From Microbacteriaceae bacterium (GTDB taxonomy: Bacteria > Actinomycetota > Actinomycetes > Actinomycetales > Microbacteriaceae), in assembly GCA_022701925.1 (NCBI GenBank), contig JAKONM010000205.1, forward strand, positions 1 through 54,574: a stretch of DNA of 54,574 nucleotides. The letters run 5' to 3'. The notes below the pieces were generated by a model, which searched no databases, was not told the origin of the DNA, and saw only the letters and a list, made by a program, of their open reading frames with translations. Each line of letters begins with the position of its first letter. Positions within the stretch are counted from its first letter, which is position 1. The position numbers were made by a program, and so were the translations under genes. Positions 1 to 50,665 of this stretch are shown piece after piece.

Positions 1-229
1 GGCGCGAGCGGCGGACGCTCGGCTGCTCGGCCGCGCGCTCAGCCTGCTGATCGTCCTCGACGGCCGTCGCGACGGCTGCAGCGGCCGCCCGCTGCGACTC
101 GGCGGCGGCGAGCTCGTCCCGCAGCGCCGTGTACTCGGCGAGGTCCTCCGGCGACGCGTCCGGCCGGTAGAGGCGGCGCTGCAGCTCGGCGAGCCGCGCC
201 CGCCGCTCCGGCTCGTCCGCATCGACCAT
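1..229 (-). CDS. LYRP-motif family protein, copy 1 (partial, runs off window start)
   Basis: Manual translation from ATG at 229: MVDADEPERRARLAELQRRLYRPDASPEDLAEYTALRDEL..., open to position 1; same motif as seven other ORFs; absent from the ORF track. Confidence 0.8.
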   Translation of the reverse strand, partial: MVDADEPERRARLAELQRRLYRPDASPEDLAEYTALRDELAAAESQRAAAAAVATAVEDDQQAERAAEQPSVRRSR

Positions 230-301
230 GCGCTCAGCCTGCACCCGGCGGGCGAGCGGTCGGTGTCGTCCCGGGGAACGCGGGGCGGCGGAGCCGCCTG
301 T

Positions 302-1276
302 TCACCCTCGGGAGGCGCCGAGCCGACCCGGGGTCCGTCGCCCGCGCCGGAGCACGACGCTCACGCCCGCGGCGAGCGCGGCGACCAGGACGGCAGCCGC
401 CCCGAGCGTCACCGCGTCCGGCCGCATCAGGGCCTGCCCGCGCTCGGCCTGCCACCACAGCAGCACGACCAGCAGCGCCGCTCCGGTGCCCGCCACCCGC
501 ATCAGGGCGCGGCGGGTGCGCTCGCCGAGCCCGGTGCGGCGCTGCAGCAGCCAGGCCAGCAGCGGCAGCGCCTGCAAGGCGTGCAGACCGGCGAAGTGGG
601 CGATGCGCAGGTCGCCGTCGGTGAGGCTCCAGCCCGTCAGCGCCATTCCAGGACCGCCGTCGGGGCCTCCGACCGTGTGCCCGCCCATCGCCGTCGGGCT
701 GAAGCCGTTGACCAGCATCGACACCGCCTCCAGCATCCCGAGCGCGCTGACCGCCAGGCCCCAGCGGATGCCGGCCGCGACCCCGGCGTCGAGGCCACGG
801 GTGCGGAGCGCCAGCACCATCACCCAGACGGTGGCGACGAGCAGCAGCGAGACGACGCCTCCGGCCGCCTGGAAGGCGACCGCGTCCAGCGGCGTAGCGG
901 TGTTGAAGTGGCTGGTCGTGCCTCGGAGCACCTGGCCGTCGACCCACAGCGTCTCGAGGCCGAACGCGACCACGACGACGACGCTGAGCCGCGTCAGCAG
1001 GCGGCGGTGACCGTGCACCGAGGCGAGGATCCAGCGCAGCGCGACCAGGTACAGCGTGATCGAGACGCCGAACTCCGCCGGCTTCACCCATGCGGCCTCC
1101 CCGCCGATCTGCCGGGGGTCGACGGCCAGCCCCACCAGCGCCACCAGCAGCGACGCCACGGCGAGCAGAGCGCCGATCAGCAGGATGCGCCGGGCGGGGT
1201 CGGCGGCCCGCTCGTCGGGCACCGGCGCGGGAAGGCGGTCGACGCGCTGCTGCAGGCGTGCGGTGACGGAGGTCAT
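302..1276 (-). CDS. Multi-pass membrane protein of unknown function
   Basis: About 7 hydrophobic segments; WVKPAEF and GDLRIAHFAGLHALQ motifs typical of a conserved hypothetical family; divergent from the two-component system. Confidence 0.8.
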   Translation of the reverse strand: MTSVTARLQQRVDRLPAPVPDERAADPARRILLIGALLAVASLLVALVGLAVDPRQIGGEAAWVKPAEFGVSITLYLVALRWILASVHGHRRLLTRLSVVVVVAFGLETLWVDGQVLRGTTSHFNTATPLDAVAFQAAGGVVSLLLVATVWVMVLALRTRGLDAGVAAGIRWGLAVSALGMLEAVSMLVNGFSPTAMGGHTVGGPDGGPGMALTGWSLTDGDLRIAHFAGLHALQALPLLAWLLQRRTGLGERTRRALMRVAGTGAALLVVLLWWQAERGQALMRPDAVTLGAAAVLVAALAAGVSVVLRRGRRTPGRLGASRG

Positions 1277-1418
1277 GCGGCCAGCCTGCGGACACCGCGG
1301 CGCGGGGCGCATCGTCCCGGAGGCCGCCTCCTCCTCGTCCTCGCGGACGCCCGCACCGCTTCGACGGCCGATGCAGTCGGCCTCCTGCTGCGGATACCGT
1401 GCGGGTCAGGAGGTCCTC

Positions 1419-2543
1419 ATGCGCGCTCAGCACGACCCGGCGGCGCTCGAGCCGAGCTGGCTGGTGCCCGTGGGCATCGCCGCCGCCGCGGCCGCCGTGA
1501 TCGCGGGCGGGAGGCCGGCGGTGCTGGCGCTGCTCGCCGTCGCCCTCGTGCCGTGGGTGCTCGGCGTCATCGGGCGCCGGATGCCGGGCGTGCTCTTCGG
1601 GCTGATCGCGGTGCTGCCGGTCGTCGGGCTGCTGGTGCTGGACGACGTCGGCGCGGGCATGTTCCTGGCGACGACCGCGCTGGCCCACCTGGCGAGCCGG
1701 TCGACCACGCGACGGCACGTCGCACTGCTCGCCGGGGTGGGGGTGCTCCTGCCGTCCACCGCGCTCGTGGGCGGGCACGCCTTCAACCCGGGCGAGGTCT
1801 ACTTCGCGATCGGGAACGTGTTCAGCGTGATGCTCGGGCTGCTGCTCGGCCGCACCCGCCGCCTGGGCGTCGAGCTGCGCGCCGCCGACGCCCGGCTCGT
1901 CGCCGCCGAGGCGCAGGAGGAGCGCACCCGACTGGCGCGGGACGTGCACGACCTGGTCGCGCACTCGCTGACGGTCGTCGTGCTGCAGGTCGGCGGCGCC
2001 CGCCGCGTGCTGCGCGCCGATCCGGCGACGGCGGAGGCGGCGCTCGAGCAGGCGGAGCGCGTGTGCCGCGAGAGCCTGGACGGCGTGCGGCAGGTGGTCG
2101 GCCTGCTGCGCACCGACGACGGGGCGGGCGCCTCCCTCGACCTGACGCGGCTGGTGCAGACCTACCGTGCCGCGACCGTCGACGTGCGGCTGCACGCCGA
2201 CGGAGACTTCGAGGACCTGCCGCTGCTGGTGCGCGGCACGCTGTACCGCGTGGTGCAGGAGGCGCTGGCGAACGCCGCCCGGTACCGCTCGGCCGGCTCG
2301 CCGGTCGAGGTCCGGGTCGCGGTCGACCCCGCCGGTGTCGCGGCGAGGGTGGCGAACGCGGGAGCAGCGGCGCCGCCGGCTCCCGGAGCGGGCGGGTTCG
2401 GGCTGGCCGGGCTGCGTGAGCAGGTCGAGGCGATCGGCGGCACGCTGACCTCCGGCCCGTCCACGAGCGGGACGGGGGAGTGGGCGGTCGAGTGCCGCCT
2501 GCCGCGGGACGCGTCCGCGGTGCAGCCCGTGGTCCCCGCGTGA
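1419..2543 (+). CDS. Membrane sensor histidine kinase (HisKA_3 type)
   Basis: ERTRLARDVHDLVAHSL H-box, QEALANA N-box, GFGLAG G-box; N-terminal TM helices; AGGAGG before ATG 1419. Confidence 0.93.
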   Translation: MRAQHDPAALEPSWLVPVGIAAAAAAVIAGGRPAVLALLAVALVPWVLGVIGRRMPGVLFGLIAVLPVVGLLVLDDVGAGMFLATTALAHLASRSTTRRHVALLAGVGVLLPSTALVGGHAFNPGEVYFAIGNVFSVMLGLLLGRTRRLGVELRAADARLVAAEAQEERTRLARDVHDLVAHSLTVVVLQVGGARRVLRADPATAEAALEQAERVCRESLDGVRQVVGLLRTDDGAGASLDLTRLVQTYRAATVDVRLHADGDFEDLPLLVRGTLYRVVQEALANAARYRSAGSPVEVRVAVDPAGVAARVANAGAAAPPAPGAGGFGLAGLREQVEAIGGTLTSGPSTSGTGEWAVECRLPRDASAVQPVVPA

Positions 2544-3193
2544 GCGCGCTGCGCGTCGTGCTCGCCGACGATCAGGCCATGATCCGGTCGGGGCTGGCGC
2601 TGGTGCTCTCGGCGGAGCCGGACCTGCAGGTGCTCGACGAGGTCGCGGACGGGCGGGCCCTGCTGCGCTCGGTCGAGCGACTGCGACCCGACCTGGTGCT
2701 GACCGACGTGCGGATGCCGGTGATGGACGGCGTGGAGGCGACCCGGATGCTGCGGGCCGCCGACGGTCCGCCGGTGCTCGCGCTGACGACCTTCGACGAC
2801 GACGAGGTGCTGTGGCCGGTGCTGGCCGCCGGGGCTGCGGGATTCGTGCTGAAGGACAGCCCGGCGGAGTCGCTGGTGGAGGCGGTGCGAGCGGTCGCCG
2901 GCGGCGGCTCCTGGCTCGACCCGCGCGTGCTGCCGCGGGTGATCGCGCGGGCCGCCGCTCAGCCGATCGCTCCGCCCGACGCCGCCCGCGCGCTCGCCTC
3001 CCTGACCCCGCGCGAGCGGCAGGTGCTCGACCTCGTCTGCGCCGGCGCGAGCAACGTCGAGATCGCGGCCGCCCTGCGCACCGCCGAGCGCACCGTCAAG
3101 ACGCAGGTGTCGGCGATCCTGCTGAAGCTGGGCGCCCGCGACCGCGCCGGTGCGATCGTCGCCGCGCACGAGGCGGGCTGGCGGCGCGGCTGA
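2540..3193 (+). CDS. NarL/LuxR-family response regulator
   Basis: VVLADD, DVRMP, LTPREREV-like HTH; GTGA overlap with kinase stop. Confidence 0.95.
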   Translation: MSALRVVLADDQAMIRSGLALVLSAEPDLQVLDEVADGRALLRSVERLRPDLVLTDVRMPVMDGVEATRMLRAADGPPVLALTTFDDDEVLWPVLAAGAAGFVLKDSPAESLVEAVRAVAGGGSWLDPRVLPRVIARAAAQPIAPPDAARALASLTPRERQVLDLVCAGASNVEIAAALRTAERTVKTQVSAILLKLGARDRAGAIVAAHEAGWRRG

Positions 3194-3296
3194 GCGGGAG
3201 CGTCATCGCGCTCCGGGTCGACCGCAGAGCGCATCCCCTGGTCGGCAGCGGATCCTGCACCTTCTGCGCGGACACGGAACCTGCTTGAGTGTGCCG

Positions 3297-3620
3297 ATGG
3301 CCGCCCTGCTCGAGACGATCGCGGTGCTGGCCCTGGTCGTGCTCGTGGGGGCGGTGATGCTGGCCGTGCTGCCGCGCGCCCGTCCCGGCGCCGACTCTGA
3401 GGCGGTCGACCGCAGCCCGGCCGCCGTCTCCGACCGGCACAAGCACCGCTGGACGCGCTGGCAGATCCTCGACGAGCGGCGCATCCACCTCTACGGCGAG
3501 GTCGACGAGGGTCGCTGGCTGCCGGACCGGATCGACGTCGTCATGCGCCGTGAGTGCGCCCGCTGCGGCTACCCGCAGACCCAGACCGTCCGCGGTCTCG
3601 ACGCGGACCGCCGCGCCTGA
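3297..3620 (+). CDS. Small membrane-anchored protein with HxH...CxxC motif
   Basis: N-terminal TM (IAVLALVVLVGAVMLAVL), then HKHRW...RRECARCGYPQ; good codon bias; ends 16 bp before SPFH gene. Confidence 0.7.
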   Translation: MAALLETIAVLALVVLVGAVMLAVLPRARPGADSEAVDRSPAAVSDRHKHRWTRWQILDERRIHLYGEVDEGRWLPDRIDVVMRRECARCGYPQTQTVRGLDADRRA

Positions 3621-3636
3621 CCTCAGAAAGGCACCC

Positions 3637-4557
3637 GTGTCCCTCCTCGTCCTCGGACTCCTCCTGCTCGCCGTCGCCGTCGCCGGTCTGGTCGTGGGCC
3701 GGCGCCGCCCCAAGTCCCGCGCCATCGGCCTGATCACCGCCGTCGCGGGCGGCGTGCTCGGGGTCGTCGCGATCCTGTCGCAGACCTTCTACACGCAGGA
3801 CTCCGGCGAGGCGTCGGTGCTGGTCGACGTCTCCGGCGTCATCGCCGGCCAGGAGACCTCGCCCGGCTTCCACGGCAAGGCTCCGTGGCAGGACGTCAAG
3901 ACGTTCAACATCCGCAACCAGACGGTGAGCTTCGTCGGCAAGGGCGACACCGACTACTCCGGGGGCTCGGCCGCCGGGCCGCAGGTCACCGCGCAGGACG
4001 CGGACGGCGTCAGCAACGACATCGACGTGAACATCGTCTACTCGATCGCCCCGGAGAAGGTCACCGACATCTACCGCCAGTACCGCGACGAGCAGAACTT
4101 CGTGCAGCAGTTCGTCGTGCAGCAGGTGCGGTCGCAGACCCGCAACGTGCCCAACCAGTTCTCGACCCTCGACCTGCTGACCAAGCGCACCGAGGTGTCC
4201 AGCGCGCTGCGCACCGCGCTCGAGTCCGCGTGGGAGGGCACCGGGGTGCAGGTCGACCAGGTGAACCTGCAGGAGATCCGCCCGCCGCAGGCCGTGCGCG
4301 ACTCCTACTCCGCCGCGCAGCAGGCCCAGGTGCAGGTCGCGGCGGAGCAGTCGAAGCTGGACGCGGCGAAGATCAGCGCGCAGCAGCAGGTGGTCCAGGC
4401 CGAGGCGCAGGCGAAGGCCAACGAGGTGCTCGCGAAGTCGCTGAGCGAGCCCGTGCTGCAGAGCCGCTACATCGACGCCCTCAAGTCGATCGGCGACAAG
4501 GGCAACCTGGTCGTCGTCCCGCAGGGGTCCACCCCGCTGGTGCAGGTGCAGAAGTAG
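3637..4557 (+). CDS. SPFH/Band 7/prohibitin-family membrane protein
   Basis: Two N-terminal TMs, PGFHGKAPW, Ala/Gln-rich coiled coil, EAQAKANEVLAKSL; AGAAAGG RBS before GTG. Confidence 0.9.
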   Translation: MSLLVLGLLLLAVAVAGLVVGRRRPKSRAIGLITAVAGGVLGVVAILSQTFYTQDSGEASVLVDVSGVIAGQETSPGFHGKAPWQDVKTFNIRNQTVSFVGKGDTDYSGGSAAGPQVTAQDADGVSNDIDVNIVYSIAPEKVTDIYRQYRDEQNFVQQFVVQQVRSQTRNVPNQFSTLDLLTKRTEVSSALRTALESAWEGTGVQVDQVNLQEIRPPQAVRDSYSAAQQAQVQVAAEQSKLDAAKISAQQQVVQAEAQAKANEVLAKSLSEPVLQSRYIDALKSIGDKGNLVVVPQGSTPLVQVQK

Positions 4558-4586
4558 ATCGCGCCCGGCCTGCGATCGGTCGTCGT

Positions 4587-4943
4587 CTAGACCGTGAAGC
4601 CGGGCACCGCGGCGACCGCCAGCGCTGCGCCGCCGAACCACACGGCGACGGCCGCGGCCAGCCCGACCAGCGGCACCCAGAAGGCGAGGCGGCGCCGCAC
4701 GAGCCGTCGCACGAGCACGATGATCGCGATCACGGCCACCACCGCGGGGCCGGCCGCGGCGACGACGACCCCGGCGGTCAGCTGCCCGGTGCTGCACTGC
4801 ACGGAGGCGCCGCAGGAGTCGCCGACCAGCGCCAGCAGCAGGCCGAGCAGCGCCCCGACCGCGGCCGCTGCGAGCAGCAGCAGGCCCAGCACGACGGTCA
4901 GCACCAGGTCCCAGACGCCGCGGCCCTCGTGCACGGTCGTCAC
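4587..4943 (-). CDS. Small 3-TM membrane protein (DUF6264-like)
   Basis: DxC...C loop between TMs, RRRLAFWVPLVG; start could be GTG 4934. Confidence 0.7.
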   Translation of the reverse strand: MTTVHEGRGVWDLVLTVVLGLLLLAAAAVGALLGLLLALVGDSCGASVQCSTGQLTAGVVVAAAGPAVVAVIAIIVLVRRLVRRRLAFWVPLVGLAAAVAVWFGGAALAVAAVPGFTV

Positions 4944-4964
4944 CGTAGCGGGGCCGCCGCGCGC

Positions 4965-5693
4965 CTACTGGTCGGAGCGCCCGCGGGGCAGGAAGGCCAC
5001 CGTCAGCGTCCACCGGCTGCCGGTGGGCGCCTTGACGGCCAGCCGCGAGGGCGGGGAGCCGTCGTAGACGAGGACGCTGTAGGCGGGCTCGACCGCGGTG
5101 CCGTCGGCGTCACCGCTCGCGACCACCTCCGCCCAGCCCGCGTGCCCCGGCTGGCGCGCCGGCCGGGTGGCGTACCAGTGCACCCGCCCCGCAGCGGGCG
5201 ACGACATCATCACCAGCAGCGTGCCGTTCTGCCGCTGCGCGGTGGAGGTGTCGATCGCCAGCGCCGTGGGGCCGCGGCCGTGGAACCGCTGCAGCCGCGT
5301 GTCGACCCCCGCCAGCGAGGTCGCGATCGGGGTCGGCCGCGGGGCGTCCGGCCGGGGTACGACCAGGGCCGCGCGCACCTCCGTGCCGGTGACGTCAGCG
5401 GGGCGGACGGTCTCGGCGACCTCCGGAGCCGGTGCCTCGCCCCTGCCGAGCAGCAGCGCGGCGACGCACGCTGCGGCGACGCCTGCGAGCAGCGCGGCCG
5501 CCGGCCAGCGGGGCCGACGGGGGAGGGTCGGCGGCGGGTCCTGCGGCTGCTGCTCGACGACGGGGGCGAGCGCCGCGTACCGCCGGCGGTCCTCGTCCGT
5601 CGCGCCGGGCCGGTACAGGCTGCGGCGCAGGGCCTCGCGCTCGGCGGGGTCGGCACCCGTCGTCTCCCGGTCGGCCACGGGCTCACTCTGCAC
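4965..5693 (-). CDS. LYRP-motif family single-pass membrane protein, copy 2
   Basis: LRRSLYRPGATDEDRRRY, one TM, FHGRGP, C-terminal LAVKAPTGSRWTLTVAF. Confidence 0.85.
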   Translation of the reverse strand: MQSEPVADRETTGADPAEREALRRSLYRPGATDEDRRRYAALAPVVEQQPQDPPPTLPRRPRWPAAALLAGVAAACVAALLLGRGEAPAPEVAETVRPADVTGTEVRAALVVPRPDAPRPTPIATSLAGVDTRLQRFHGRGPTALAIDTSTAQRQNGTLLVMMSSPAAGRVHWYATRPARQPGHAGWAEVVASGDADGTAVEPAYSVLVYDGSPPSRLAVKAPTGSRWTLTVAFLPRGRSDQ

Positions 5694-5720
5694 CCGCTGC
5701 CGCGCGGCGTGTGCGCGGGT

Positions 5721-5918
5721 TCAGTCGGGGAGCACGTCCTCCGCCGGGAACGCCGGCAGCGGCTCGTCGTCCTGCTGCTTCGCGCGACCTGTGCTGGTGA
5801 GGGTGTGCTCCGCCTCCTCGGGCTCGCCGTGCTGCTCGGGCACCGGCGCATCGCTGCGCTCGTCCAGCGCGGTCTCCGGGTCCTCGGTGTGGGGCATGAA
5901 CGGCTCGGCCATCGACAT
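5721..5918 (-). CDS. Small acidic hypothetical protein (about 65 aa)
   Basis: MSMAEPFMPHTEDPETALDE...; high GC3, fills the gap between copies 2 and 3. Confidence 0.6.
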   Translation of the reverse strand: MSMAEPFMPHTEDPETALDERSDAPVPEQHGEPEEAEHTLTSTGRAKQQDDEPLPAFPAEDVLPD

Positions 5919-5989
5919 GGAGGCAGCGTGGGGGCGCCACGTGAACAGGAGGTGGCAGCGGGCTGAGCCGCTGCTGGGGCGATGCGCCG

Positions 5990-6727
5990 TCAGCGGAGGG
6001 TCGGCTCGATGCCGTCGGTGACGGCGACCAGCAGCGACCAGGCGGATCCCGCGGGCGCCTCCACCGCGATCCGGCTGGGCGGGCCCGTCGGGTAGATGAA
6101 GGTGGTGGGGTCCGCCGTGCCCCGCGGCTCGCCGGTGCGACCGCGCGCGAGCACCGCCGGGTAGCTCCTGCCGTCGCCGCGCAGCACGATCAGCAGCGCT
6201 CGCCAGGCGACCGGCGCGGTGCCGCTCGTGCTCAGCGCGACCTTCATCCGGCCGCCGTCGATCGCACCCGTCGGCGGGTCGAACGCCACGACCGCGTTGC
6301 CGCGACCCTCGTAGCGGAGGCCGACGGCGGCGACCCCGTGCACGGAGGTCGCCGCCCGCACCGGCGCCGACACCGTCCCCTCCTCGACGGCGAGGGTCCG
6401 ACCCTCGCCGATGTCCCGGACGTCGGCGGCAGGCGCCGGCGACGACGCGGTGACCGCCGGGGCGCCCCGGTCGGTGCTGATCAGCGCCGCGACCGCGGCG
6501 AGCGCCGCTGCTCCGGCCATCACGCCCAGGAGGGCGCGGCGCCGCACCCCGGACATGGTCGCGAGCGGCTGCCCCGGCAGGTCCTCGGCCGGGGCGACCG
6601 GTTCGGGCTGCGCGGCGAGGTAGCGGCGCACGTCCTCCTCGGAGGCGTCCGCGCGGTAGAGGCGGTGGCGCAGGGCGTCGATCCGCACCGCGTCGTCGCC
6701 GGCAGACGGCTCGGGCTCGGTCCGCAC
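5990..6727 (-). CDS. LYRP-motif family single-pass membrane protein, copy 3
   Basis: LRHRLYRADASEEDVRRY, one TM, YEGRGN, C-terminal IAVEAPAGSAWSLLVAV. Confidence 0.85.
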   Translation of the reverse strand: MRTEPEPSAGDDAVRIDALRHRLYRADASEEDVRRYLAAQPEPVAPAEDLPGQPLATMSGVRRRALLGVMAGAAALAAVAALISTDRGAPAVTASSPAPAADVRDIGEGRTLAVEEGTVSAPVRAATSVHGVAAVGLRYEGRGNAVVAFDPPTGAIDGGRMKVALSTSGTAPVAWRALLIVLRGDGRSYPAVLARGRTGEPRGTADPTTFIYPTGPPSRIAVEAPAGSAWSLLVAVTDGIEPTLR

Positions 6728-6764
6728 GGCACCACCCTGCCCCTTCCCGGGCGCGACCGCTCGT

Positions 6765-6850
6765 CCCGCGGATCCGCAGATCCGCAGGCGACACCCCGTC
6801 AGCGGGAGCGGCTGCTGCGGCGCGTCGGACAGGAAATGCGGATCCGCGGG
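6765..6850. repeat. Nested-palindrome REP/REPIN-like element A
   Basis: Perfect 14-bp terminal inverted repeat CCCGCGGATCCGCA (6765-6778 / 6837-6850); degenerate inner CGACACCCC...GGCGCGTCG. Confidence 0.8.
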
Positions 6851-6857
6851 CGCCCCC

Positions 6858-7829
6858 TCAGGCGGCGGTGTACCAGTTGCGCTCCCAGCGGTGGCGGCGC
6901 AGCGTCGCCAGCTGCTCGGAGGAGAGCGGGCCGCGGTCGCTCGTCGCCGCGTTGCGCTCCACGTTGCGCACCGACCGCATCCCGGCGATCACGGTCGACA
7001 CCGCCGGCTGCGCCAGCGCGTAGCGCAGCGCCAGGTCCGGCAGCTCGTCGACGTCGATCCCCAGGTCCTGGACCAGCGCCTGCACGTGCCGGTCGAGCTG
7101 CGCCGCGCGGTCGCCGCCGAAGTACCCGGCGCGGAAGTCGCCCGGCTCGAACCGGGTGTCGGCGGTGACGCGCCCGGTCAGCCCGCCCTCGTCCAGCGCG
7201 ACGCGGACGATCACGCCCACGTCGTGCTGCTCGCAGGCTGGCAGCAGATGCTCCTCCGGCTGCTGGTGGAAGACGTTCTCGATCACCTGCACGGTGTCGA
7301 TCACCCCGGACCGCACCAGCTCGACGCCGTTCTCCGGCTGGTGGTCGTTGATGCTGACGCCGAAGAACCGGATCAGCCCCTCCTGCTTCAGCGCCTGCAC
7401 GGTCTCCAGCCAGTCGCCGCGGCCGACCCACTCGTCGCTCCAGACGTGGAACTGCAGCACGTCGAACGCCTCCAGCCCGCTGGCCCTGAGGCTCGTCTGC
7501 AGGCTCTCCCGGATGTGGTCGCCGGGGAACGCGTCCTCCACCCGCACGCCCGCGGCGGCGGGCCACTGGAGGTTCTTCGGCGGCACCTTGGTCGCGACGA
7601 CCAGCCCCTCGTCGGCGTGCCGGCGCACCACCCGGCCGACCAGCTCCTCGCTGCGGCCGTAGCCGCGCGCCGTGTCGATGAAGGTGCCGCCGACCTCGAT
7701 GAAGCGCTCCAGCGCCTGCAGCGACTCGTCGTCCTGCGCGCCGATCCATCCCTCGCCGCCGATGCCCCAGGCGCCGTAGCCGATGTCGGAGACCTGGAGG
7801 CCGGTGCGGCCCAGCTGTCGGTACTGCAC
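6858..7829 (-). CDS. Aldo/keto reductase
   Basis: LGRTGLQVSDIGYGAW, FIDTARGYG, VATK motifs; GAGGAG RBS before GTG. Confidence 0.95.
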   Translation of the reverse strand: MQYRQLGRTGLQVSDIGYGAWGIGGEGWIGAQDDESLQALERFIEVGGTFIDTARGYGRSEELVGRVVRRHADEGLVVATKVPPKNLQWPAAAGVRVEDAFPGDHIRESLQTSLRASGLEAFDVLQFHVWSDEWVGRGDWLETVQALKQEGLIRFFGVSINDHQPENGVELVRSGVIDTVQVIENVFHQQPEEHLLPACEQHDVGVIVRVALDEGGLTGRVTADTRFEPGDFRAGYFGGDRAAQLDRHVQALVQDLGIDVDELPDLALRYALAQPAVSTVIAGMRSVRNVERNAATSDRGPLSSEQLATLRRHRWERNWYTAA

Positions 7830-7994
7830 GGTGATGCTCCTCGTCGTCGAGCGGACCGGGGATCGACCCGCGGGCCGCACGCTACGGGCGGCTGCGGCAC
7901 GACGCCTGATGGGGTGCGTCGCGCTGCACCCGAGCGGCCCCGCAGGTCGACGCCTGCGCGCCTGCGGCAGGCTGAGCCCGTGGACGTGCTGCGG

Positions 7995-8381: not shown

Positions 8382-8448
8382 GCGGTCATCTTCGGCTCGG
8401 GATCGCGGCCTAGCCTCGTCGCCTCACGAGCAAGAGGGTGCGTCAAGG

Positions 8449-41890: not shown

Positions 41891-41925
41891 ACGAGCCCGT
41901 CTCCCCGCTGGGGAGGCGGGCTCGT
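41891..41925 (+). terminator. Hairpin terminator after csp
   Basis: ACGAGCCCGTCTCCCC-gct-GGGGAGGCGGGCTCGT. Confidence 0.75.
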
Positions 41926-41978
41926 CGCATTCCCGGCGCGGTGTTGCCGCCGCCGGCCGCGGGTGCCACGGTGGAGCC

Positions 41979-43366: not shown

Positions 43367-43432
43367 CCGGCCGCGGTCTCGGCGGATGCTCAGGCAACTG
43401 GGGGAGTGACCCCCGCCCGGGGGTGCGTCAGG

Positions 43433-43906
43433 ATGTCCGGCGTGCTCCCCACGCTCTCCACCGCCGTCTGCCTCGACGAGTTCTTCGCCGACCGCCGCCG
43501 CGGCGCCGTCGGCCGCCCGCTCATCCGGATCGAGCGGGTCGAGACCGTGCTGCGCGCCGCCGTGGAGCGCATGGCCGACCTGGTCCTGACGGACGAGGAG
43601 CAGCTCGTCGTGGCCTTCGAGCGCCAGTTCCAGCCGAACGGCGCCGTGGCCCGCATCCTGCCCGCCTCCGGCCTGCTGCTGGTGCTCGAGGCGCACCTGG
43701 CGGCGCTCGAGGGGCGCCCCAGCCGCGGAGCCGCCCGCCGCACCGAGCTGGAGCTCTGCGGCCAGCTGGCCCGCCATCTGACCCGCGAGCTGCAGCACCT
43801 GGACGTGCAGCGCGCCGCGCACCGCATCGAGGTGGCGCTGCAGGAGTGCGCCGCCAGCGCCGACCGCGGCCCCGCCGGCCTGCTGCGCCGAGCCCTGGGC
43901 CGCTGA
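43433..43906 (+). CDS. Hypothetical helical protein (ERQF family, copy 1)
   Basis: LTDEEQLVVAFERQFQPNGAVARIL; paralog at 53097. Confidence 0.75.
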   Translation: MSGVLPTLSTAVCLDEFFADRRRGAVGRPLIRIERVETVLRAAVERMADLVLTDEEQLVVAFERQFQPNGAVARILPASGLLLVLEAHLAALEGRPSRGAARRTELELCGQLARHLTRELQHLDVQRAAHRIEVALQECAASADRGPAGLLRRALGR

Positions 43907-43995
43907 CCCGGAGGGGCCGGCCCCCTGCACGACCGTCGTCTGCGGCTGCTGCGTGCACCTGCGGTCGGTGGAACAGCCGCGATCGCGCGGAGCAA

Positions 43996-44009
43996 CCGCG
44001 GATCCGCGG
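43996..44009. repeat. Solo CCGCGGATCCGCGG palindrome (core of elements A-C)
   Basis: Perfect 14-bp palindrome between convergent genes. Confidence 0.55.
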
Positions 44010-44017
44010 CTGACGGG

Positions 44018-45358
44018 TCAGGCGAAGGCCTCGCGGACCCGCACGAAGTCGGCGTCCGCGACCGCCGCGTAGCGCGCCGACCAGGCGGCCACGGCACGGT
44101 CGAACTCCTCGCCGTCGTGCAGGTACTCCGCGATCGCTGCGGCCGCCGCGCTCTGCGCGTGCGCCCGCGCCAGCACGGTGCCGCAGGTGCGCACGTAGGC
44201 CCGCAGCTCCTCCGCCGACAGGTCCGCCAGCCGGATCGCGCCCTTCATGTCGTGGTACTGCCGCACGTAGTAGTCGTGGCTGCGGCCCTCGAAGTGCCCG
44301 AGGAAGGGGTCGCCCACCGCCTGCAGCACGCGCTGGTGCGAGAACACGCGCAGCCCCTCCCGCCCCGGCGCCGTGAGCGGGGCGAGCCCGGGCTGGGGCT
44401 GCAGGCCGTGCGACTCGAGCACGCTGCGCACCGCCTGCTTGATCTGCAGCAGCAGCGGCTCGCCGTCGGGGCCGCGCAGCACGATCAGCCAGCAGCGCGT
44501 GCCGACGCTGCCGACGCCGACGACCTTGCGGGCCACGTCGTCGATGCGGAAGCGCGACAGCAGCTCGCGCACCCCGGGATCCACCGACTCCAGGTACGTG
44601 TCGAGCAGGCGCTCGGTGTGCCCGGGCTGCGAGTCCGGCCGGTGCACGAGCACCGGCGGGTCCTCGACGAAGCGGCGTCGCCCGTCCGGCAGCAGCTCGG
44701 TCATGCGCTCCGCGGCGCGCAGGGAGGTGCGGCGCCGGGCCTTCGCGACCGTCCGCTCGAGCGCCGCCCCGCGACGGGAGCCGAGCGCCGCGCGCAGGTC
44801 GGCCTCGTCGCTTCGCACGTAGTACCGCTCCAGCACGGTCAGGGCCGCCAGCGCGCCGATGGCGTCGCGGTAGCCGGCGACCGACGACTCCGCGGCGGCG
44901 GTGCACCCCGCCGGGTCCGCGCCGAGCGAGCGCGCCGCGAGGAAGGCGCTGACGGCCAGCCGCTTCACGTCCCACTCCCACGGCGCCGTGCCGGCCTCGT
45001 CGAAGTCGTTCAGGTCGAAGACCAGGGAGCGCTCGGGGCTCGCGAAGACGCCGAAGTTCTGCAGGTGCGCGTCGCCGTCCGCGACCACCGCCGCACCGGT
45101 CGAGGCGGTGGCCGTGAGGTCGGTGGCCATGATGGCGGCGGTGCCGCGGTAGAAGGCGAACGAGTCGGTCAGCGTGCGCTGCATCCGCAGCTCGACCAGG
45201 TCGGGCTGCCGCGTCTCGTTCTGCTCCGCCAGGATCGCCGCGGGGTCCCGCTGCGGCACGGCCAGGTCGGCGTGCGCCGACAGCGGCAGCGCGGAACGGG
45301 CGGCCCTGCCCTCTTCGCGCAGCCGGGCGGTGGTCGGCACGTCGGCGGCGGTCGGCAC
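44018..45358 (-). CDS. DUF2252 family protein (kinase-like fold)
   Basis: FAFYRGTA, GDAHLQNFG, FDLNDFDE, KVVGVGSVG, LARAHA. Confidence 0.92.
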   Translation of the reverse strand: MPTAADVPTTARLREEGRAARSALPLSAHADLAVPQRDPAAILAEQNETRQPDLVELRMQRTLTDSFAFYRGTAAIMATDLTATASTGAAVVADGDAHLQNFGVFASPERSLVFDLNDFDEAGTAPWEWDVKRLAVSAFLAARSLGADPAGCTAAAESSVAGYRDAIGALAALTVLERYYVRSDEADLRAALGSRRGAALERTVAKARRRTSLRAAERMTELLPDGRRRFVEDPPVLVHRPDSQPGHTERLLDTYLESVDPGVRELLSRFRIDDVARKVVGVGSVGTRCWLIVLRGPDGEPLLLQIKQAVRSVLESHGLQPQPGLAPLTAPGREGLRVFSHQRVLQAVGDPFLGHFEGRSHDYYVRQYHDMKGAIRLADLSAEELRAYVRTCGTVLARAHAQSAAAAAIAEYLHDGEEFDRAVAAWSARYAAVADADFVRVREAFA

Positions 45359-45390
45359 CCGGTCACCGTACCGAGGCGGAGTCCGGCCGG

Positions 45391-46104
45391 TCAGCGGGTG
45401 AAGACCACGGCCGCGCCCCAGCGCACCCCGTCGGGCACGTCCACGCGCAGCCGCACCGGCCGCCCGCCGTCGGAGTGGGCGAAGGTGGCCGTGGTCAGCG
45501 CCCCGGCGGCCTGGTCGCCCTGACGCTCGGCCACCGGGCGCAGCACGACGACGGGGCTGCCGTCCGTGCCCAGGCGCAGCGCCTGCCAGGCGACGTGCAC
45601 CGGCTGCGCGACGACGACGAGCACGGTCGCGCGGCCCGCGCCGGCCGGCACCTGCGAGACGTCCAGCGGCAGCGTGCCGGGTCCCGAGCCGTGCAGCTCG
45701 TCGGTGATCGTGCCGTCGGTCGCGACCAGCCCGGGCGGGGAGGGATGGGTGACCAGGTAGGCGGCGATGCCCGCGTCGCCGCCGCGGGCCAGGTTCTGCA
45801 GCAGCTCGGAGCGGTCCTCCGCCGACAGCGCGACGCCCGTCGGCGCCGGAGCGGGCGGCGCACCGGTCGGTCGCAGCAGCAGCGCACCGGCGACCACCAG
45901 CAGCACGGCGGCGACCCCCGCCGCCCCGACCGCGCGCCGGGAGGGCCGCGGTCGGCGCCGGCGAGGGGTCGGGGTCGCGGACGCCCCGGCCCGCCGAGCG
46001 GTCCGCGGCGCCGCGGAGGCAAAGCGCTGCAGGTCGTCCGGGGAGGCGTCCGGCCGGTAGAGCCGTCGGCGCAGCGCCTCCCGGTCCTGCCGCTGCTCCG
46101 CCAC
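45391..46104 (-). CDS. LYRP-motif family single-pass membrane protein, copy 7
   Basis: GTG 46104; LRRRLYRPDASPDDLQRF, one TM, LHGSGP, LRVDVPDGVRWGAAVVF. Confidence 0.85.
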   Translation of the reverse strand: MAEQRQDREALRRRLYRPDASPDDLQRFASAAPRTARRAGASATPTPRRRRPRPSRRAVGAAGVAAVLLVVAGALLLRPTGAPPAPAPTGVALSAEDRSELLQNLARGGDAGIAAYLVTHPSPPGLVATDGTITDELHGSGPGTLPLDVSQVPAGAGRATVLVVVAQPVHVAWQALRLGTDGSPVVVLRPVAERQGDQAAGALTTATFAHSDGGRPVRLRVDVPDGVRWGAAVVFTR

Positions 46105-46133
46105 CCCGCCGATCCTGCCCCGGATCCGCCGGC

Positions 46134-47027
46134 TCAGCGGATGCCGCTGCGCGCGAAGCCCTGCACGAAGTACCGCTGGAAGACCAGGAAGAGCACGACC
46201 ATCGGCACCACGTCGAGCAGCGCGAAGGCCATCGTCGTGCCGTAGTCCGGGCCGTTCTCGCTCTGCAGGTAGAGCAGCCCGATCGGCAGCGTGAACAGCC
46301 GGTTCTCCTTCAGCGCGATCAGCGGCCAGGCGAAGTCGTTCCAGCTGGCCAGCAGGCTCATGAAGAACAGCACCGCCAGCAGCGGCTTGGAGAGGGGCAG
46401 CACCACGCTGCGGAAGACCCGCAGGTGCCCGGCGCCGTCCATGCGGGCCGCCTCGATCAGCTCCTTCGGGATGCCCAGCAGGAACTGCCGGGCGAGGAAC
46501 AGCCCGAACGCGCTGGCCGCCGTCGGCAGGATCACGGCCCAGTAGCTGCCGTAGAGCCCCAGGTCGGTGACCAGGCGGAACAGGGCGACCATGATCACCT
46601 GCACGGGCAGCGTCAGGGTGGCGAGCGCCACCAGGAACAGCGCGGTGGAGCCGCGGAACCGCAGGTGCGCGAAGGCGTACCCGGCCAGCATGTTCACGCC
46701 CACCGTCAGCACCGCGGTGGTGATCGCGATCGCCGTGGAGTTGCCGAACCAGGTCCATACGGGGAACGAGCCCAGCACCCGGTCGAAGTTCTCCAGGGTC
46801 AGGGTGCGGGGCACCAGCCGCAGGTCGCCGCCGAGCAGGTCCGAGCGGCTGGAGAGCGCGACGACCAGCATCCAGTACAGCGGGAACAGCACGACCGCGG
46901 CGACGACGACCGCCGCGAGGATCCGCGCCGCCAGGCCCAGGCGGGAGGCGCGGCGGGGGCGTCTCGGCGCGGCCGTTCGGCTCGACGGACGGACGGACGG
47001 GCGGGCGAGGGGGTCGGCGCGGGTCAT
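46134..47027 (-). CDS. Carbohydrate ABC permease
   Basis: EAARMDGA, WNDFAWPL. Confidence 0.93.
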   Translation of the reverse strand: MTRADPLARPSVRPSSRTAAPRRPRRASRLGLAARILAAVVVAAVVLFPLYWMLVVALSSRSDLLGGDLRLVPRTLTLENFDRVLGSFPVWTWFGNSTAIAITTAVLTVGVNMLAGYAFAHLRFRGSTALFLVALATLTLPVQVIMVALFRLVTDLGLYGSYWAVILPTAASAFGLFLARQFLLGIPKELIEAARMDGAGHLRVFRSVVLPLSKPLLAVLFFMSLLASWNDFAWPLIALKENRLFTLPIGLLYLQSENGPDYGTTMAFALLDVVPMVVLFLVFQRYFVQGFARSGIR

Positions 47028-47929
47028 CCGGTCAGGTCCTTCGTGCGGCTGGTGCGCCAGCGCACCGCGGTGAACACCAGGGCGAAGACCAGCAGCACCA
47101 TGCCGATCGCGGCCGCGTACCCCTGGTCCCGCACGACGAAGCCGTTCTGGTACGCGTAGGTCACGAGCACGCTGGTCGCGTCCTGGGGCCCGCCGCCGGT
47201 CATCACGAACACCAGGTCGAAGACCTGGAACGAGTAGATGACGTTGATGACCAGCAGGAAGAAGCTGGAGGGGCCGAGCAGCGGCACGGTGACCAGGCGC
47301 AGGCGCTGCCACCACGAGGTGCCGTCGAGCATCGCGGCCTCCTGCAGCTCGGGCGACAGCCCCTGCAGCCCCGCCAGGTAGATCAGCATGTTGAAACCGG
47401 TGCGCCACCACAGCGTGACGAGCACGATGGAGAGGAACGCGGCGGCCCCGCCCGACTGCCACTGCACGGCCGGCAGCCCGACGAAGCGCAGCAGCTCGTT
47501 CAGCACGCCGGAGTTCTCGTCGAACACCAGCAGCCCGATCAGTGCCGTCGCCACCCCGGACACCGCCATCGGCAGGATCAGGATCGAGCGGAACACCGCG
47601 CGGGCCGGCAGCACCGAGTTCAGCAGCAGCGCCGCGCCGAGCCCCAGCCCCATGGAGAGCGGGGTCGTGATCAGCGTGAACAGCAGCGTGTTGCCGGTGG
47701 AGCGCCAGAACACGGGGTCGGCCAGCAGGCGGGCGTAGTTGTCGAGGCCGGTGAAGACCCCGCCGCCGAAGCCGTCGGTGCGCTGGAAGCTGATCGACAC
47801 GGCCCAGGCCAGCGGCAGCAGCACGAACAGGCCGAGCAGCAGCAGGTTCGGTGCGATCAGCCCGTAGGCGACGGCGGTCTCACGGCCGCCGCGGGACCGG
47901 CGGCGTCGAGGGGCGGTGACGGCGGTCAC
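47024..47929 (-). CDS. Carbohydrate ABC permease
   Basis: YLAGLQ, EAAMLDG, GYAAA. Confidence 0.93.
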   Translation of the reverse strand: MTAVTAPRRRRSRGGRETAVAYGLIAPNLLLLGLFVLLPLAWAVSISFQRTDGFGGGVFTGLDNYARLLADPVFWRSTGNTLLFTLITTPLSMGLGLGAALLLNSVLPARAVFRSILILPMAVSGVATALIGLLVFDENSGVLNELLRFVGLPAVQWQSGGAAAFLSIVLVTLWWRTGFNMLIYLAGLQGLSPELQEAAMLDGTSWWQRLRLVTVPLLGPSSFFLLVINVIYSFQVFDLVFVMTGGGPQDATSVLVTYAYQNGFVVRDQGYAAAIGMVLLVFALVFTAVRWRTSRTKDLTG

Positions 47930-49227
47930 GCGCCCACGGCCCGGTCGATGCCGGAGGCCAGCGCCTGCACGGTCGCGTCCACGCCCCGGCCGCCGACGAA
48001 CGCCTGCTCGAGCCCGTCCTGCAGCACGCTGATGATCTTCGACATGTCGGGTGACGCCACCTGCGCGGAGTCCTCCGCCCGCACGGCGCGGGCCTGACCC
48101 AGCAGCACCGGCGTCAGCTCGGGCCGCACCGCGAACTCGATCCCGCCCTCCACCAGGTCCGCCCTCGTGGGCAGCAGCGAGGCCCGCTCGCAGAAGTCCC
48201 GCATCTGCGACTCCTGCGTCACGTGCTCGAAGAAGGCGGCGATCAGCTCGGCCTTGCCCTCCGCCCCCTTCGTCGCCACCAGCGCGTTGCCGCCGAAGTC
48301 CCCGCCGGCGCGCACGTTGCGGGGGGCCGGGGTCGCGGTCCAGTCGAACTTCAGCGCGCTGTCGGCGTCGGGGATGGCGAAGGCGCCGGAGAAGACCATG
48401 GCCGTGGTCTGGTCGTACCAGGTGTCCGCAGCGTAGGTCGTCGACTTCACGGAGTCGTTGGCGGGCACCAGCCGGTCCGGGAAGAACGAGCGGGTGAAGT
48501 CGACGGCGGTGCGGGCGGCGCGCGAGTCGATCGCGGACGCGGTGAGCGTCTCGTTCAGGAACCGCCCGTCGGCCTGGAACAGCCAGCTGAGCCAGCGGGT
48601 GACGCCGTTGCCCTGCCAGTTCACCGCGAACGGGTACTTCCGGTCCGGCTGCGCGCGGCGCAGGCGCTGCGCCACGGCGCGGAACTGCGACCACGTCCAG
48701 GCGTCGTCCGCCGTCTGCGGCACGGCGCCGACGCCGGCGTCGTCCAGGGCCCGCCGGTTCACGAAGACGACGGAGGTGTCGGTGTGGTGCGGCACCCCGT
48801 ACGGCTTCCCGCCGCTCTGCACGGCGGCCCAGGCCTGGGGCGTGAACCGGTCGGCGAACCCGGAGGACAGGTGCGGCGACAGGTCCAGCAGCTGCCCCTG
48901 CCCGGCGTAGGCGCCGAACGTGTAGTACGGCACGCGGAAGACGTCCGGCGGGTTGCCCGCCTGGATCTGCGCGTCGATGTTCGTGAACATCTGCTCGTAG
49001 GGCACGGCGTTCAGCTCGACGGTCGCGCCCGCGCGCGCCTTCTGGAAGGAGGCGATGGCCCGGCGGAAGCCGGTGAGCTCGGCCGAGGTGCCCCAGGTCG
49101 TGAAGGTGAGCGTCTGCGCGTCGGCGGACGGCGAGGCGCCGGTGGGGATGAAGCCGCATCCCGCCAGCGCGAGCGGCGCCGCGAGGACGCCTGCGCCGCC
49201 GATCAGCTGCCGCCTGGTGGGTTCCAT
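47926..49227 (-). CDS. Sugar ABC substrate-binding lipoprotein (Tat)
   Basis: TRRQLI signal, LAGC lipobox, PPDVF, YGVP. Confidence 0.9.
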   Translation of the reverse strand: MEPTRRQLIGGAGVLAAPLALAGCGFIPTGASPSADAQTLTFTTWGTSAELTGFRRAIASFQKARAGATVELNAVPYEQMFTNIDAQIQAGNPPDVFRVPYYTFGAYAGQGQLLDLSPHLSSGFADRFTPQAWAAVQSGGKPYGVPHHTDTSVVFVNRRALDDAGVGAVPQTADDAWTWSQFRAVAQRLRRAQPDRKYPFAVNWQGNGVTRWLSWLFQADGRFLNETLTASAIDSRAARTAVDFTRSFFPDRLVPANDSVKSTTYAADTWYDQTTAMVFSGAFAIPDADSALKFDWTATPAPRNVRAGGDFGGNALVATKGAEGKAELIAAFFEHVTQESQMRDFCERASLLPTRADLVEGGIEFAVRPELTPVLLGQARAVRAEDSAQVASPDMSKIISVLQDGLEQAFVGGRGVDATVQALASGIDRAVGA

Positions 49228-49321
49228 GGCGTCAGTGTTCCGACCGCGGGCTGGCAGCGCGGGGGAGCGGCCGCGCATCGGCGGCGCGCTCACATGCGAC
49301 GGGGGCGGACCCGGCGCCGGA

Positions 49322-49699
49322 TCAGTCCCGCAGCTGCGCCAGCAGGGCCGCCCCGTCGTCGGAGCCCGCGTGCTCGACCAGGCGTCCGGCGTGCACGCGG
49401 AAGAAGCCGAACTCGGCGACCCCGACGTGCCGCCCCGTCGCCCGGACGCCCCGCCAGTCGCCGCGATGGGTGCCGCGGGTGCGCAGGTGCGCCGCCAGCC
49501 GGTCCTCCTCCACCAGCACCGCGATGCGCTTCCACCGGTGGTCGGGGAAGGCGGTCAGCAGCTCGTCGAGGTCGCGCAGCCAGGCGTCGGCGCCGCGGGG
49601 CCGGCCGGCCCGGCGCACGTCCGTGGCCAGCAGCCCGCCGACCCGGACCAGGTCGTGGCTGTTGCAGGCGTCCAGCCAGTCGTCGAACCAGTCGCGCAC
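49322..49699 (-). CDS. SnoaL-like ester cyclase family protein
   Basis: AFPD, GTHRGDWRGVRATGR, EFGFFRV; start uncertain. Confidence 0.8.
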   Translation of the reverse strand: MRDWFDDWLDACNSHDLVRVGGLLATDVRRAGRPRGADAWLRDLDELLTAFPDHRWKRIAVLVEEDRLAAHLRTRGTHRGDWRGVRATGRHVGVAEFGFFRVHAGRLVEHAGSDDGAALLAQLRD

Positions 49700-49710
49700 C
49701 GCGTCGGGGT

Positions 49711-49839
49711 TCAGCGGGCGACCTCCGCGCCGTGGATCGGGCACCGCGGGCCGACGATGGTGGGGAAGAGCGGGCTGCCGCAGGTGCCGCAGAGCGGGCG
49801 GGCTGCGGTCGTGGAACGACCCTCGACGGTGAGCGACAT
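49711..49839 (-). CDS. 42-aa zinc-ribbon microprotein
   Basis: Manual translation MSLTVEGRSTTAARPLCGTCGSPLFPTIVGPRCPIHGAEVAR; CxxC...CxxH; below ORF-track cutoff. Confidence 0.6.
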   Translation of the reverse strand: MSLTVEGRSTTAARPLCGTCGSPLFPTIVGPRCPIHGAEVAR

Positions 49840-49927
49840 GCTCCAGATGATGAGGGATCAGTCCGTGAGGCGGCCGCTCGTGCGCCTCGCATCGGCTGTG
49901 ACCGCCGCTTCCCCGCATCCCGGCCGG

Positions 49928-50665
49928 TCAGGCGGAGAAGACGGCCGCGACGCCCCAGCGCACGCCGTCGGGCGCCACCACCAGCAGCGTGCCGGGCCGG
50001 CGCCCGGGCGCCCAGTCGACCGAGGCGGAGGTCAGCGCGCCCGCCCGCTGCAGCGCGCTGCGGGATCCGGCGACCGCGTCGCCGCCCGCGCCCGGGGACG
50101 CGTCCACCAGGGTCCAGGTCAGCCGCGCGTCGACGGCCGTGACGACCAGCACCGTCACGTGCCCGCCGTCCTGCCCGATCGAGGGCGGGTCCAGCCGCAG
50201 CGTCCGGCTGCCGGAGCCGGCGAACTCCAGGGTGTCCGAGCGGGTCGCCCGCCCCAGCACGCCGGGCAGCCGCCGCGCGTTGCGGTCGAGCCAGCCCGAC
50301 ACGCCGGCCCGGCCGGCGGCGGTCAGCGCCCGCACGAAGCCGTTGCGGTCCGCGGTGCCCGTGCGCACGACCGTCTCGACCGCGGCGGGGGTGCTCGCGG
50401 AGGCGGTCGGCGCCGGCCCGTCCGAGGCCGGCCGCGGCAGGACCGCAGCCGCGGCGAGCGCGGCGGCGGCGACGGCGACGAGTGCCGCGCCCGCCCGGCG
50501 CCGGGCGCGGGACGGGCGCGTCGGCGGCTCCGTCCCCGGTGCGCCCGGCTCGGGCTCGGGCGACGCGCTCCGCCCGCGGGAGTAGGCGGCCACGTCCTCG
50601 TCGGAGGCGCCGGGCCGGTACAGGCGCCGGCGCAGCGCCTCCTCCTGCTCGTCCGGAGGGGTCAC
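49928..50665 (-). CDS. LYRP-motif family single-pass membrane protein, copy 8
   Basis: LRRRLYRPGASDEDVAAY, one TM, FAGSGS, LLVVAPDGVRWGVAAVF. Confidence 0.85.
   Translation of the reverse strand: MTPPDEQEEALRRRLYRPGASDEDVAAYSRGRSASPEPEPGAPGTEPPTRPSRARRRAGAALVAVAAAALAAAAVLPRPASDGPAPTASASTPAAVETVVRTGTADRNGFVRALTAAGRAGVSGWLDRNARRLPGVLGRATRSDTLEFAGSGSRTLRLDPPSIGQDGGHVTVLVVTAVDARLTWTLVDASPGAGGDAVAGSRSALQRAGALTSASVDWAPGRRPGTLLVVAPDGVRWGVAAVFSA

What the first reader, a model, noticed from the sequence alone, without database searches (positions are those of the whole stretch)
1..50665. Eight dispersed paralogs of an unrecognised receptor-like membrane protein family (LxxxLYRP motif)
Seen: eight ORFs (1-229 partial, 4965-5693, 5990-6727, 28646-29374, 33390-34127, 35958-36560, 45391-46104, 49928-50665) start with the motif L-x-x-x-L-Y-R-[PA]-x-[AP]-x(7)-[YF]. 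The seven complete copies continue with an Arg/Pro linker, one TM helix, a Pro/Thr spacer and a ~110-aa beta-rich domain with G-x-G and a C-terminal V-x-x-P-x-G-x-x-W-like motif. The rest of the sequence is highly divergent. Density is about one per 7 kb among unrelated housekeeping genes, with no adjacent sigma factor or transposase. Inference: a lineage-specific expansion, possibly hundreds of copies per genome if the density holds. A constant cytoplasmic motif may dock a shared partner while variable outer domains sample ligands, as in anti-sigma factors or diversified surface receptors.
Basis: partly seen in the sequence, partly recalled or inferred. Interest (0 to 1): 0.88.

Follow-up and report, generated by a model that had tools for sequence, protein, structure and literature searches.

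The report
Hairpin-tagged membrane receptor family of Amnibacterium
Eight of this bacterium's twelve detected copies of an unannotated membrane protein family lie in one stretch whose gene order is scrambled between related species; each joins a conserved, predicted inner helical hairpin to a variable, predicted outer binding domain, so they likely act as cell-envelope sensors or adaptors that would share one still unknown partner.

Summary
The eight ORFs are real, old paralogues under purifying selection, with no Pfam or NCBIfam match at cut-off. Predicted architecture: cytoplasmic helical hairpin (LRRRLYxPGAxxxDxxRY), linker, one TM helix, outer jelly-roll domain. 'Hundreds of copies' is refuted: the 3.17 Mb assembly holds 12, and 9 are in this window or the adjoining contig. 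The jelly-roll form was found only in this genus (Amnibacterium by named hits; 16 of 17 relatives). The hairpin itself is a wider Microbacteriaceae module (about 16 of 95 genera), fused to unrelated outer domains (LysM-like, Cys jelly-roll, a third type). In three near-complete relatives the copies lie in or beside a bounded zone about 80-240 kb from dif, where gene order is shuffled but strand is kept (44 of 46 moved blocks) and the flanks are collinear. This fits tandem duplication with random loss and would explain the dispersed, same-strand copies. Best reading: orphan envelope sensors/adaptors whose hairpin docks a shared partner (0.45). Anti-sigma identity is unsupported: no linked sigma, only weak likeness. 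No partner, ligand or expression is shown. No earlier scan note on this family was found.

The parts
1..229 (-). Family copy, N-terminal half (hairpin plus linker); the C-terminal jelly-roll half likely lies on contig C266:9679-10119
   Evidence: the junction itself is not assembled
4965..5693 (-). Family copy, beta-stalk subtype; likely start 5678 after a CAGAGT -10 box at 5685-5690
5990..6727 (-). Family copy, beta-stalk subtype; CAGGGT -10 box at 6734-6739; relatives lie beside the same small gene in G005, G014 and G017
28646..29374 (-). Family copy between GH43 and amidohydrolase (nagA-like) genes; likely start 29359 after a CATCCT box at 29366-29371
33390..34127 (-). Family copy, helical-stalk subtype; start uncertain (CTG)
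35958..36560 (+). Short two-Cys subtype on the opposite strand; its orthologues lie beside nusB in G001, G005, G011 and G017, so it likely moved into this zone; likely start 35967
45391..46104 (-). Family copy, helical-stalk subtype, used for the model: hairpin residues 2-31, TM 56-76, helices 95-119, jelly-roll 133-236; CAGGAT box at 46112-46117
49928..50665 (-). Family copy, helical-stalk subtype; its clade lies beside the SnoaL-like gene in G011 and G017 too
1..54574 (.). The whole window belongs to a region whose gene order is shuffled between genus members while strand is kept

Best explanation
These are old, selected paralogues of a single-pass membrane protein whose predicted outer jelly-roll domain likely binds a ligand in the cell-wall space, and whose conserved, predicted cytoplasmic helical hairpin likely docks one shared, unidentified partner, so they would work as orphan envelope sensors or adaptors. 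Shown: the ORFs, motif conservation, purifying selection, fusion of the motif to unrelated outer domains, cross-species paralogue clades, and strand-keeping gene shuffling in a bounded zone. Predicted: topology and folds. Inferred: ligand binding, a shared partner, leaderless expression from each gene's own weak promoter, and spread by repeated local tandem duplication with random loss of redundant neighbours, which would leave retained copies dispersed and co-oriented.
For: The hairpin is the most conserved part: mean top-residue frequency 0.65, against 0.43 for the jelly-roll and 0.32 for the linker; 153 of 159 full-length homologues carry it. AF2 model pLDDT 89.8: hairpin, TM, 8-strand domain. 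The nearest folds are jelly-rolls, including protease accessory domains, CBM36/CBM6/CBM51 and TNF-like lectins. The same hairpin precedes a TM and a LysM-like domain (3 of 5 with Pfam LysM hits, E 4e-4 to 0.033), a Cys jelly-roll and a third outer domain in other genera. A longer, well-folded version exists (pLDDT 95; linked by hhalign P 2e-5) in 19 of 201 family genomes. dN/dS: hairpin 0.25, outer 0.27 (three pairs). Window copies fall into different cross-species clades. 39 of 64 genes have a -10 box 5-8 nt before a start, against 3.75% for internal ATG/GTG. Shuffle zone.
Against: No partner, ligand or transcript is shown. Fold matches are generic (best Z 7.9, rmsd 2.6, 99 aligned), and a jelly-roll does not imply sugar binding. 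The LysM hits are under Pfam's cut-off. No gene neighbour is shared by all copies. One 97%-complete genus member (G015) has no detectable copy, so the family is dispensable there. Order breaks are not enriched at family genes (26 of 52 gaps with a copy, against 59 of 120 other long gaps), so the genes are passengers of the shuffling as far as tested. The hairpin could be only a scaffolding or targeting tag.
Confidence: 0.45

Rival explanations
1. The hairpin is a SHOCT-like assembly or targeting tag: it gathers membrane proteins into an envelope scaffold or a fixed location, and no signal crosses the membrane.
For: It is a short bihelical module reused on unrelated domains. PMC11237479 (passages read) proposes such an assembly role for SHOCT-like domains. 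A flexible, poorly conserved linker separates hairpin and TM (pLDDT about 50), which argues against rigid signal transfer.
Against: No SHOCT or DUF1707 hit among 70 members at E 0.05. The SHOCT paper's abstract says its experiments did not support oligomerisation. The outer domains stay distinct and conserved per clade, which suggests separate inputs.
Confidence: 0.25
2. They are orphan anti-sigma factors: the hairpin is a reduced anti-sigma domain that holds an ECF sigma until intramembrane proteolysis releases it.
For: The architecture matches bitopic anti-sigma factors such as RsgI (search listing and abstract starts). Weak NCBIfam hits: NF052375 'antisigma' E 4e-4 and 1e-4; NF038083 E 2e-4. 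The second helix resembles that of zf-HC2/RskA-type N-termini (hhalign P 0.004, probability 8.8%). An ECF/zf-HC2 pair lies just upstream of copies in G001, G005 and G011. UniRef names one long-form member 'Anti-sigma factor'.
Against: The hits score about 20 bits against a 100-bit cut-off and span linker and TM. The likeness fades with broader alignments (P 0.03 and 0.46). There is no HxxxCxxC (137 of 159 have no Cys). That anti-sigma was not found in G000, G014 or G004, which hold several copies, but is present in G015, which has none. The genes flanking the 11 sigma-like genes of G000 include no family member.
Confidence: 0.15
3. They are membrane-anchored immunity or decoy proteins against phages, or against toxins or wall hydrolases of neighbouring bacteria, kept as a diversified set in a variable region.
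For: Variable copy number, faster evolution than neighbours (dN/dS 0.30-0.48 against 0.03-0.24 for nine neighbours), and location in an accessory zone. The best-holding run is a phyllosphere metagenome, which may be the source sample.
Against: No toxin or phage gene among the window's neighbours. The outer domains are under purifying, not diversifying, selection, and paralogue clades are old. Immunity would not need an invariant cytoplasmic hairpin. PADLOC and PHROGs were not scanned.
Confidence: 0.1
4. They are largely neutral relics of a duplication-prone region.
For: Patchy presence, weak non-consensus promoters (36 of 39 boxes start with C), and slightly lower GC3 than most neighbours.
Against: Intact frames, dN/dS well under 1 and cross-species clades.
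Confidence: 0.03

Closest known systems
RsgI anti-sigma-I sensors of Clostridium thermocellum (PMC10328401, PMC12203970, PMC6582324, PMC6852018, PMC4711584; search listing and abstract starts only)
   Same: A set of about nine paralogous single-pass proteins with a small conserved inner domain and variable outer sensing domains
   Different: RsgIs have cognate sigma-I factors; here there is no linked sigma, no Pfam match to RsgI domains, a helical hairpin as inner domain and a much shorter protein
zf-HC2 (PF13490) / RskA-type (PF10099) actinobacterial anti-sigma factors
   Same: Similar length and type II topology; weak likeness in the second helix
   Different: No zinc ligands, no Pfam hit, a different outer domain and no operon with an ECF sigma
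SHOCT and SHOCT-like bihelical domains (PMC3581485 abstract; PMC11237479 passages)
   Same: A short two-helix module attached to many unrelated domains
   Different: Always N-terminal and cytoplasmic on single-TM proteins here; found only in Microbacteriaceae among those searched; no SHOCT or DUF1707 hit
SNAP, duplication followed by random loss (PMC7055797 passages; PMC9016547 abstract and section 5); tandem duplication-random loss of mitochondrial genomes (PMC3283314, listing only)
   Same: Would rearrange order inside a duplicated stretch; that orientation is kept follows from the mechanism (my inference)
   Different: Here it looks recurrent, short-range and confined to a bounded zone of about 160 kb near the terminus across a genus; no duplication was caught in progress

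Membership tests
Any curated Pfam or NCBIfam family | Score above the curated cut-off | tested here: not met
   0 of 8 window proteins; among 70 aligned members no Pfam hit better than E 0.0024; long-form members matched no domain family at cut-off
zf-HC2/ZAS anti-sigma factor | HxxxCxxC zinc motif in the N-terminal domain | tested here: not met
   Absent from the hairpin alignments; 137 of 159 members have no Cys
Class I anti-sigma domain (ASD) proteins | Profile similarity of the N-terminal domain | tested here: inconclusive
   hhalign against 7 anti-sigma N-termini: probability 8.8%, P 0.004 over 15 columns; P 0.03 and 0.46 with broader alignments; reversed control P 0.48
Class I anti-sigma domain (ASD) proteins | Gene adjacent to and co-occurring with a cognate ECF sigma | tested here: not met
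   No sigma among 50 window proteins; the nearby ECF/anti-sigma pair of relatives does not co-occur with the family
Class I anti-sigma domain (ASD) proteins | Binds and inhibits a sigma factor | not tested
   No sigma-hairpin complex was predicted or assayed
RsgI | RsgI inner and periplasmic domains with a cognate sigma-I | tested here: not met
   No such Pfam or NCBIfam hit; the predicted inner domain is a helical hairpin; the RsgI features are recalled or from abstract starts
SHOCT / SHOCT-like (PF09851, DUF1707) | Match to the SHOCT or DUF1707 profile | tested here: not met
   No hit in 70 members at E 0.05; divergent SHOCT-like domains can escape these models
Carbohydrate-binding jelly-roll modules (CBM6/36/51, TNF-like lectins) | Jelly-roll fold | tested here: inconclusive
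   Predicted jelly-roll; Z 6.0-6.5 to CBMs, level with viral capsids and protease domains
Carbohydrate-binding jelly-roll modules (CBM6/36/51, TNF-like lectins) | Sugar binding | not testable with these tools
   Needs a glycan array or calorimetry
LysM (variant members outside the window) | PF01476 above the gathering score | tested here: inconclusive
   3 of 5 hit, with 20.7, 19.9 and 14.6 bits against a cut-off of 20.9

The most novel reading that the evidence does not exclude
The hairpin is the docking domain of an undescribed Microbacteriaceae transmembrane signalling system that uses no adjacent sigma factor or kinase: many orphan receptors with swapped outer domains converge on one cytoplasmic effector. 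In Amnibacterium, selection for more such receptors drives repeated duplication in a bounded terminus-proximal zone, reshuffling its gene order without inversion, a natural genus-wide case of SNAP.
Probability: 0.2. Interest if true: 0.8.

Novelty: new variant of a known kind. Interest (0 to 1): 0.5.

Why it matters
It defines an unannotated cytoplasmic module that marks a set of single-pass envelope proteins across Microbacteriaceae and gives a direct bait (a 30-residue hairpin, or a well-folded 100-residue long form) for finding their common partner. The bounded zone that changes gene order but not orientation, between fully collinear flanks, is a clean natural test for duplication-and-loss models of bacterial gene-order change. 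Without a partner or phenotype, it is a modest genus-level expansion of a familiar architecture, not the massive expansion first proposed.

Tried and rejected
Hundreds of copies: rejected. Mobile element or DNA repeat: no transposase among 50 window proteins, motif DNA only 62-74% identical, no tRNA in 25 region loci, and neither REP-like palindromes nor close direct repeats are enriched in the shuffle zone of three relatives. Family genes as breakpoints: not enriched. Partnering with the nearby ECF/zf-HC2 pair: no co-occurrence. ECF-type promoter: no conserved -35 motif among 39 aligned promoters. Homotrimer prediction of the full-length protein: no answer (score 0.00), no evidence either way. 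Sequence search of PDB: best E 0.24. Fold searches of the long cytoplasmic module: no match with E <= 0.001, best Z 7.2 to generic helical hairpins. ESM Atlas: best feature scores 0.81 and 0.77, leads only; DUF6023 appears on 40% of one cluster. Expression: no RNA holder listed. Contigs from other DNA runs cover the locus but could not close the C266 junction. Weak matches of the full-length profile in other genera: seven of eight inspected were linker/TM composition noise, and one (G055) proved a true hairpin member. Three out-of-family hairpin hits and two of nine newly inspected in-family hits were chance. Alignment A8 held one wrongly specified row, absent from A9. Literature: searches on Amnibacterium with paralog or synteny, Microbacteriaceae expansion, leaderless promoters, orphan anti-sigma and DUF2510 found nothing on this family. 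The library is open-access only and no supplements were read. Earlier scan notes were unrelated.
Full report
Observation. The eight ORFs exist as described; seven are on the - strand and one on +. The seven complete ones align with conserved columns in the N-terminal motif and in the C-terminal domain (G-x-G, G-x-x-x-V, terminal W). Each has one TM segment with a positive-inside bias. None reaches a Pfam or NCBIfam cut-off, and no PDB sequence matches. The surrounding genes are accessory metabolism and regulation, with no sigma factor or transposase among 50 scanned.

Copy number and range. A profile of the window copies finds 11 matches above its inclusion threshold in the 3.17 Mb, 93%-complete assembly, and the hairpin profile finds 12 genes: 8 in the window, 1 on C266, and one each on C44, C120 and C123. 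C266 likely adjoins the window's left end, because its terminal fragment and the window's partial ORF best-hit the same orthologue; there is no exact overlap. The extrapolation to hundreds of copies fails. The family is present in 16 of 17 other genomes of the genus. All 5 of the 46 protein hits that carry an organism name are Amnibacterium. 218 representatives at 50% identity pass E 0.001. In 247 genomes of other genera of the family, only partial N-terminal or TM matches appeared. Five near-complete relatives hold 10, 8, 7, 4 and 0 hairpin genes.

Structure. AlphaFold2 on a 70-row alignment gives pLDDT 89.8: helices 2-15 and 22-31, a disordered linker, TM 56-76, two helices at 95-119 and an eight-strand domain at 133-236. 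The domain is a jelly-roll. The best matches are the subtilisin accessory jelly-roll (Z 7.9, rmsd 2.6, 99 aligned), viral capsids, CBMs and TNF-like proteins, all at a level that shows only a common fold. Across 159 full-length homologues the hairpin is the most conserved part (0.65, against 0.43 for the jelly-roll). The tip of a long beta-hairpin differs between clades but is conserved within them.

The hairpin is a portable module. In the genus it also precedes a LysM-like domain in genes between the tsaE- and tsaB-like genes (five genomes; gene names recalled from sequence), and a short two-Cys domain beside nusB (four genomes). The window copy 35958-36560 belongs to this second clade, while no such gene was called beside this genome's nusB. 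A longer form (consensus AYxGxHDxxDALWWxxHP...PSG...P, then the hairpin and a long helix) occurs in 19 of 201 family genomes, 13 of 101 genera. It was not found in 200 other genomes drawn across the class. It is linked to the short form by profile comparison (P 2e-5) and by intermediate sequences, folds confidently as five helices (pLDDT 95) and has no clear structural match. A broadened hairpin profile hits 24 of 201 family genomes, 16 of 95 genera. Many of these were in the training alignment, and two of nine newly inspected in-family hits were chance. True hits again have one TM and a third kind of outer domain. Outside the family, three weak hits among the 151 genomes of the order search were chance.

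Evolution of the copies. In a 64-row tree (LysM-type rows and one truncated row left out) most window copies group with genes of other genomes rather than with each other; 33390 and 4965 are unplaced, and 5990 pairs with the C266 copy. The duplications are therefore mostly old. Three orthologue pairs from two close genomes give dN/dS 0.25 (hairpin), 0.46 (linker-TM-stalk) and 0.27 (outer domain), against 0.03-0.24 for nine neighbours: selected, fast, not hypervariable. 39 of 64 genes have a [CT]ANNNT box 5-8 nt before an in-frame start, against 3.75% for internal ATG/GTG codons. 36 of the 39 begin with C, whereas the genome's boxes are mostly TANNNT (274 T against 123 C). No -35 motif stands out. 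I infer independent, weak, leaderless transcription; no RNA run was available.

Why dispersed yet clustered. In G001, G005 and G017 the clustered copies lie about 60-180 kb from a dif-like site (pattern recalled) and all point the same way. Over about 360-380 kb compared per genome, orthologues keep strand in 213 of 214, 211 of 212 and 228 of 228 pairs. Order breaks are confined to roughly +70 to +240 kb from dif, the flanks are collinear, and a 60 kb control region has no break. Moved blocks are mostly single genes, lie on both strands, and keep strand in 44 of 46 cases; both exceptions are one gene, and the pairs are not independent. With seven genomes including this one, 430 of 431 pairs keep strand. 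Tandem duplication followed by random loss, the SNAP route of Brandis and Hughes (PMC7055797, passages; PMC9016547, abstract and section 5), would give this pattern and would scatter retained paralogues on one strand. This is inference: no duplication was caught, breaks are not enriched at family genes, and no repeat substrate is enriched in the zone.

Function. The best reading is an orphan envelope sensor or adaptor: a clade-specific outer domain binds a wall or environmental ligand, and the invariant hairpin recruits a shared cytoplasmic partner (0.45). The reuse of one hairpin on unrelated outer domains is the main support. The anti-sigma version is weak (0.15): sub-threshold hits, a faint second-helix likeness, no zinc motif, and a nearby ECF/anti-sigma pair that does not co-occur with the family. 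A SHOCT-like scaffolding tag (0.25; PMC3581485 abstract, PMC11237479 passages), immunity or decoy roles (0.10) and neutrality (0.03) are the other rivals.

Novelty and verdict. The architecture is familiar (RsgI-like sets, search listing). The module and family matched no curated model, and my open-access searches found no description (no supplements read; subscription journals not covered). Verdict: real, a new variant of a known kind, a modest expansion, mechanism unproven; interest 0.5.

Noticed in passing
G000 contig C225:4819-4890; G001:C2:310547-310618; G005:C2:225870-225941: Two dif-like sites in inverted orientation, 24 bases apart; G013 and G017 showed one each at two mismatches, and G000 has a third candidate on C337.
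   Followed up: no
G001, G005, G017 contig C2, about +70 to +240 kb from dif; includes this window: A sharply bounded zone of gene-order shuffling without inversion, between collinear flanks.
   Followed up: partly
window 6787-6848, 13954-14074, 23838-23939: REP-like intergenic palindromic repeats built on GCGGATCCGC: 9 matches in the window against 2.5 expected from the genome mean.
   Followed up: partly
window 26211-26284, 27404-27477, 53575-53648: A second 74-nt repeat family, 65-74% identical, with inverted-repeat character; two copies flank the unannotated ORF 26402-27418.
   Followed up: no
window 17533-28607: An amino-sugar utilisation cluster (BadF-type kinase, SIS protein, sugar ABC transporter, GH3, glucosamine-6-phosphate isomerase, amidohydrolase); its core stays in order inside the shuffled zone in four genomes.
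   Followed up: no
window 34289-35866 and 36568-37686: An RPE65-family carotenoid oxygenase-like gene and a fatty acid desaturase flank the opposite-strand copy.
   Followed up: no
L077, L080, L081, L085, L087: Hairpin-TM-LysM-like gene inserted between the tsaE- and tsaB-like genes in five relatives; absent at that place in G000.
   Followed up: partly
G001, G005, G017 cluster region: The clustered copies point away from dif, so they are likely head-on to replication (inferred and the strand bias).
   Followed up: no
window 53992-54574 and contig C226:1-741: A serine dehydratase gene appears split across the window's right end and C226, suggesting the contig order C266-C221-C226.
   Followed up: no
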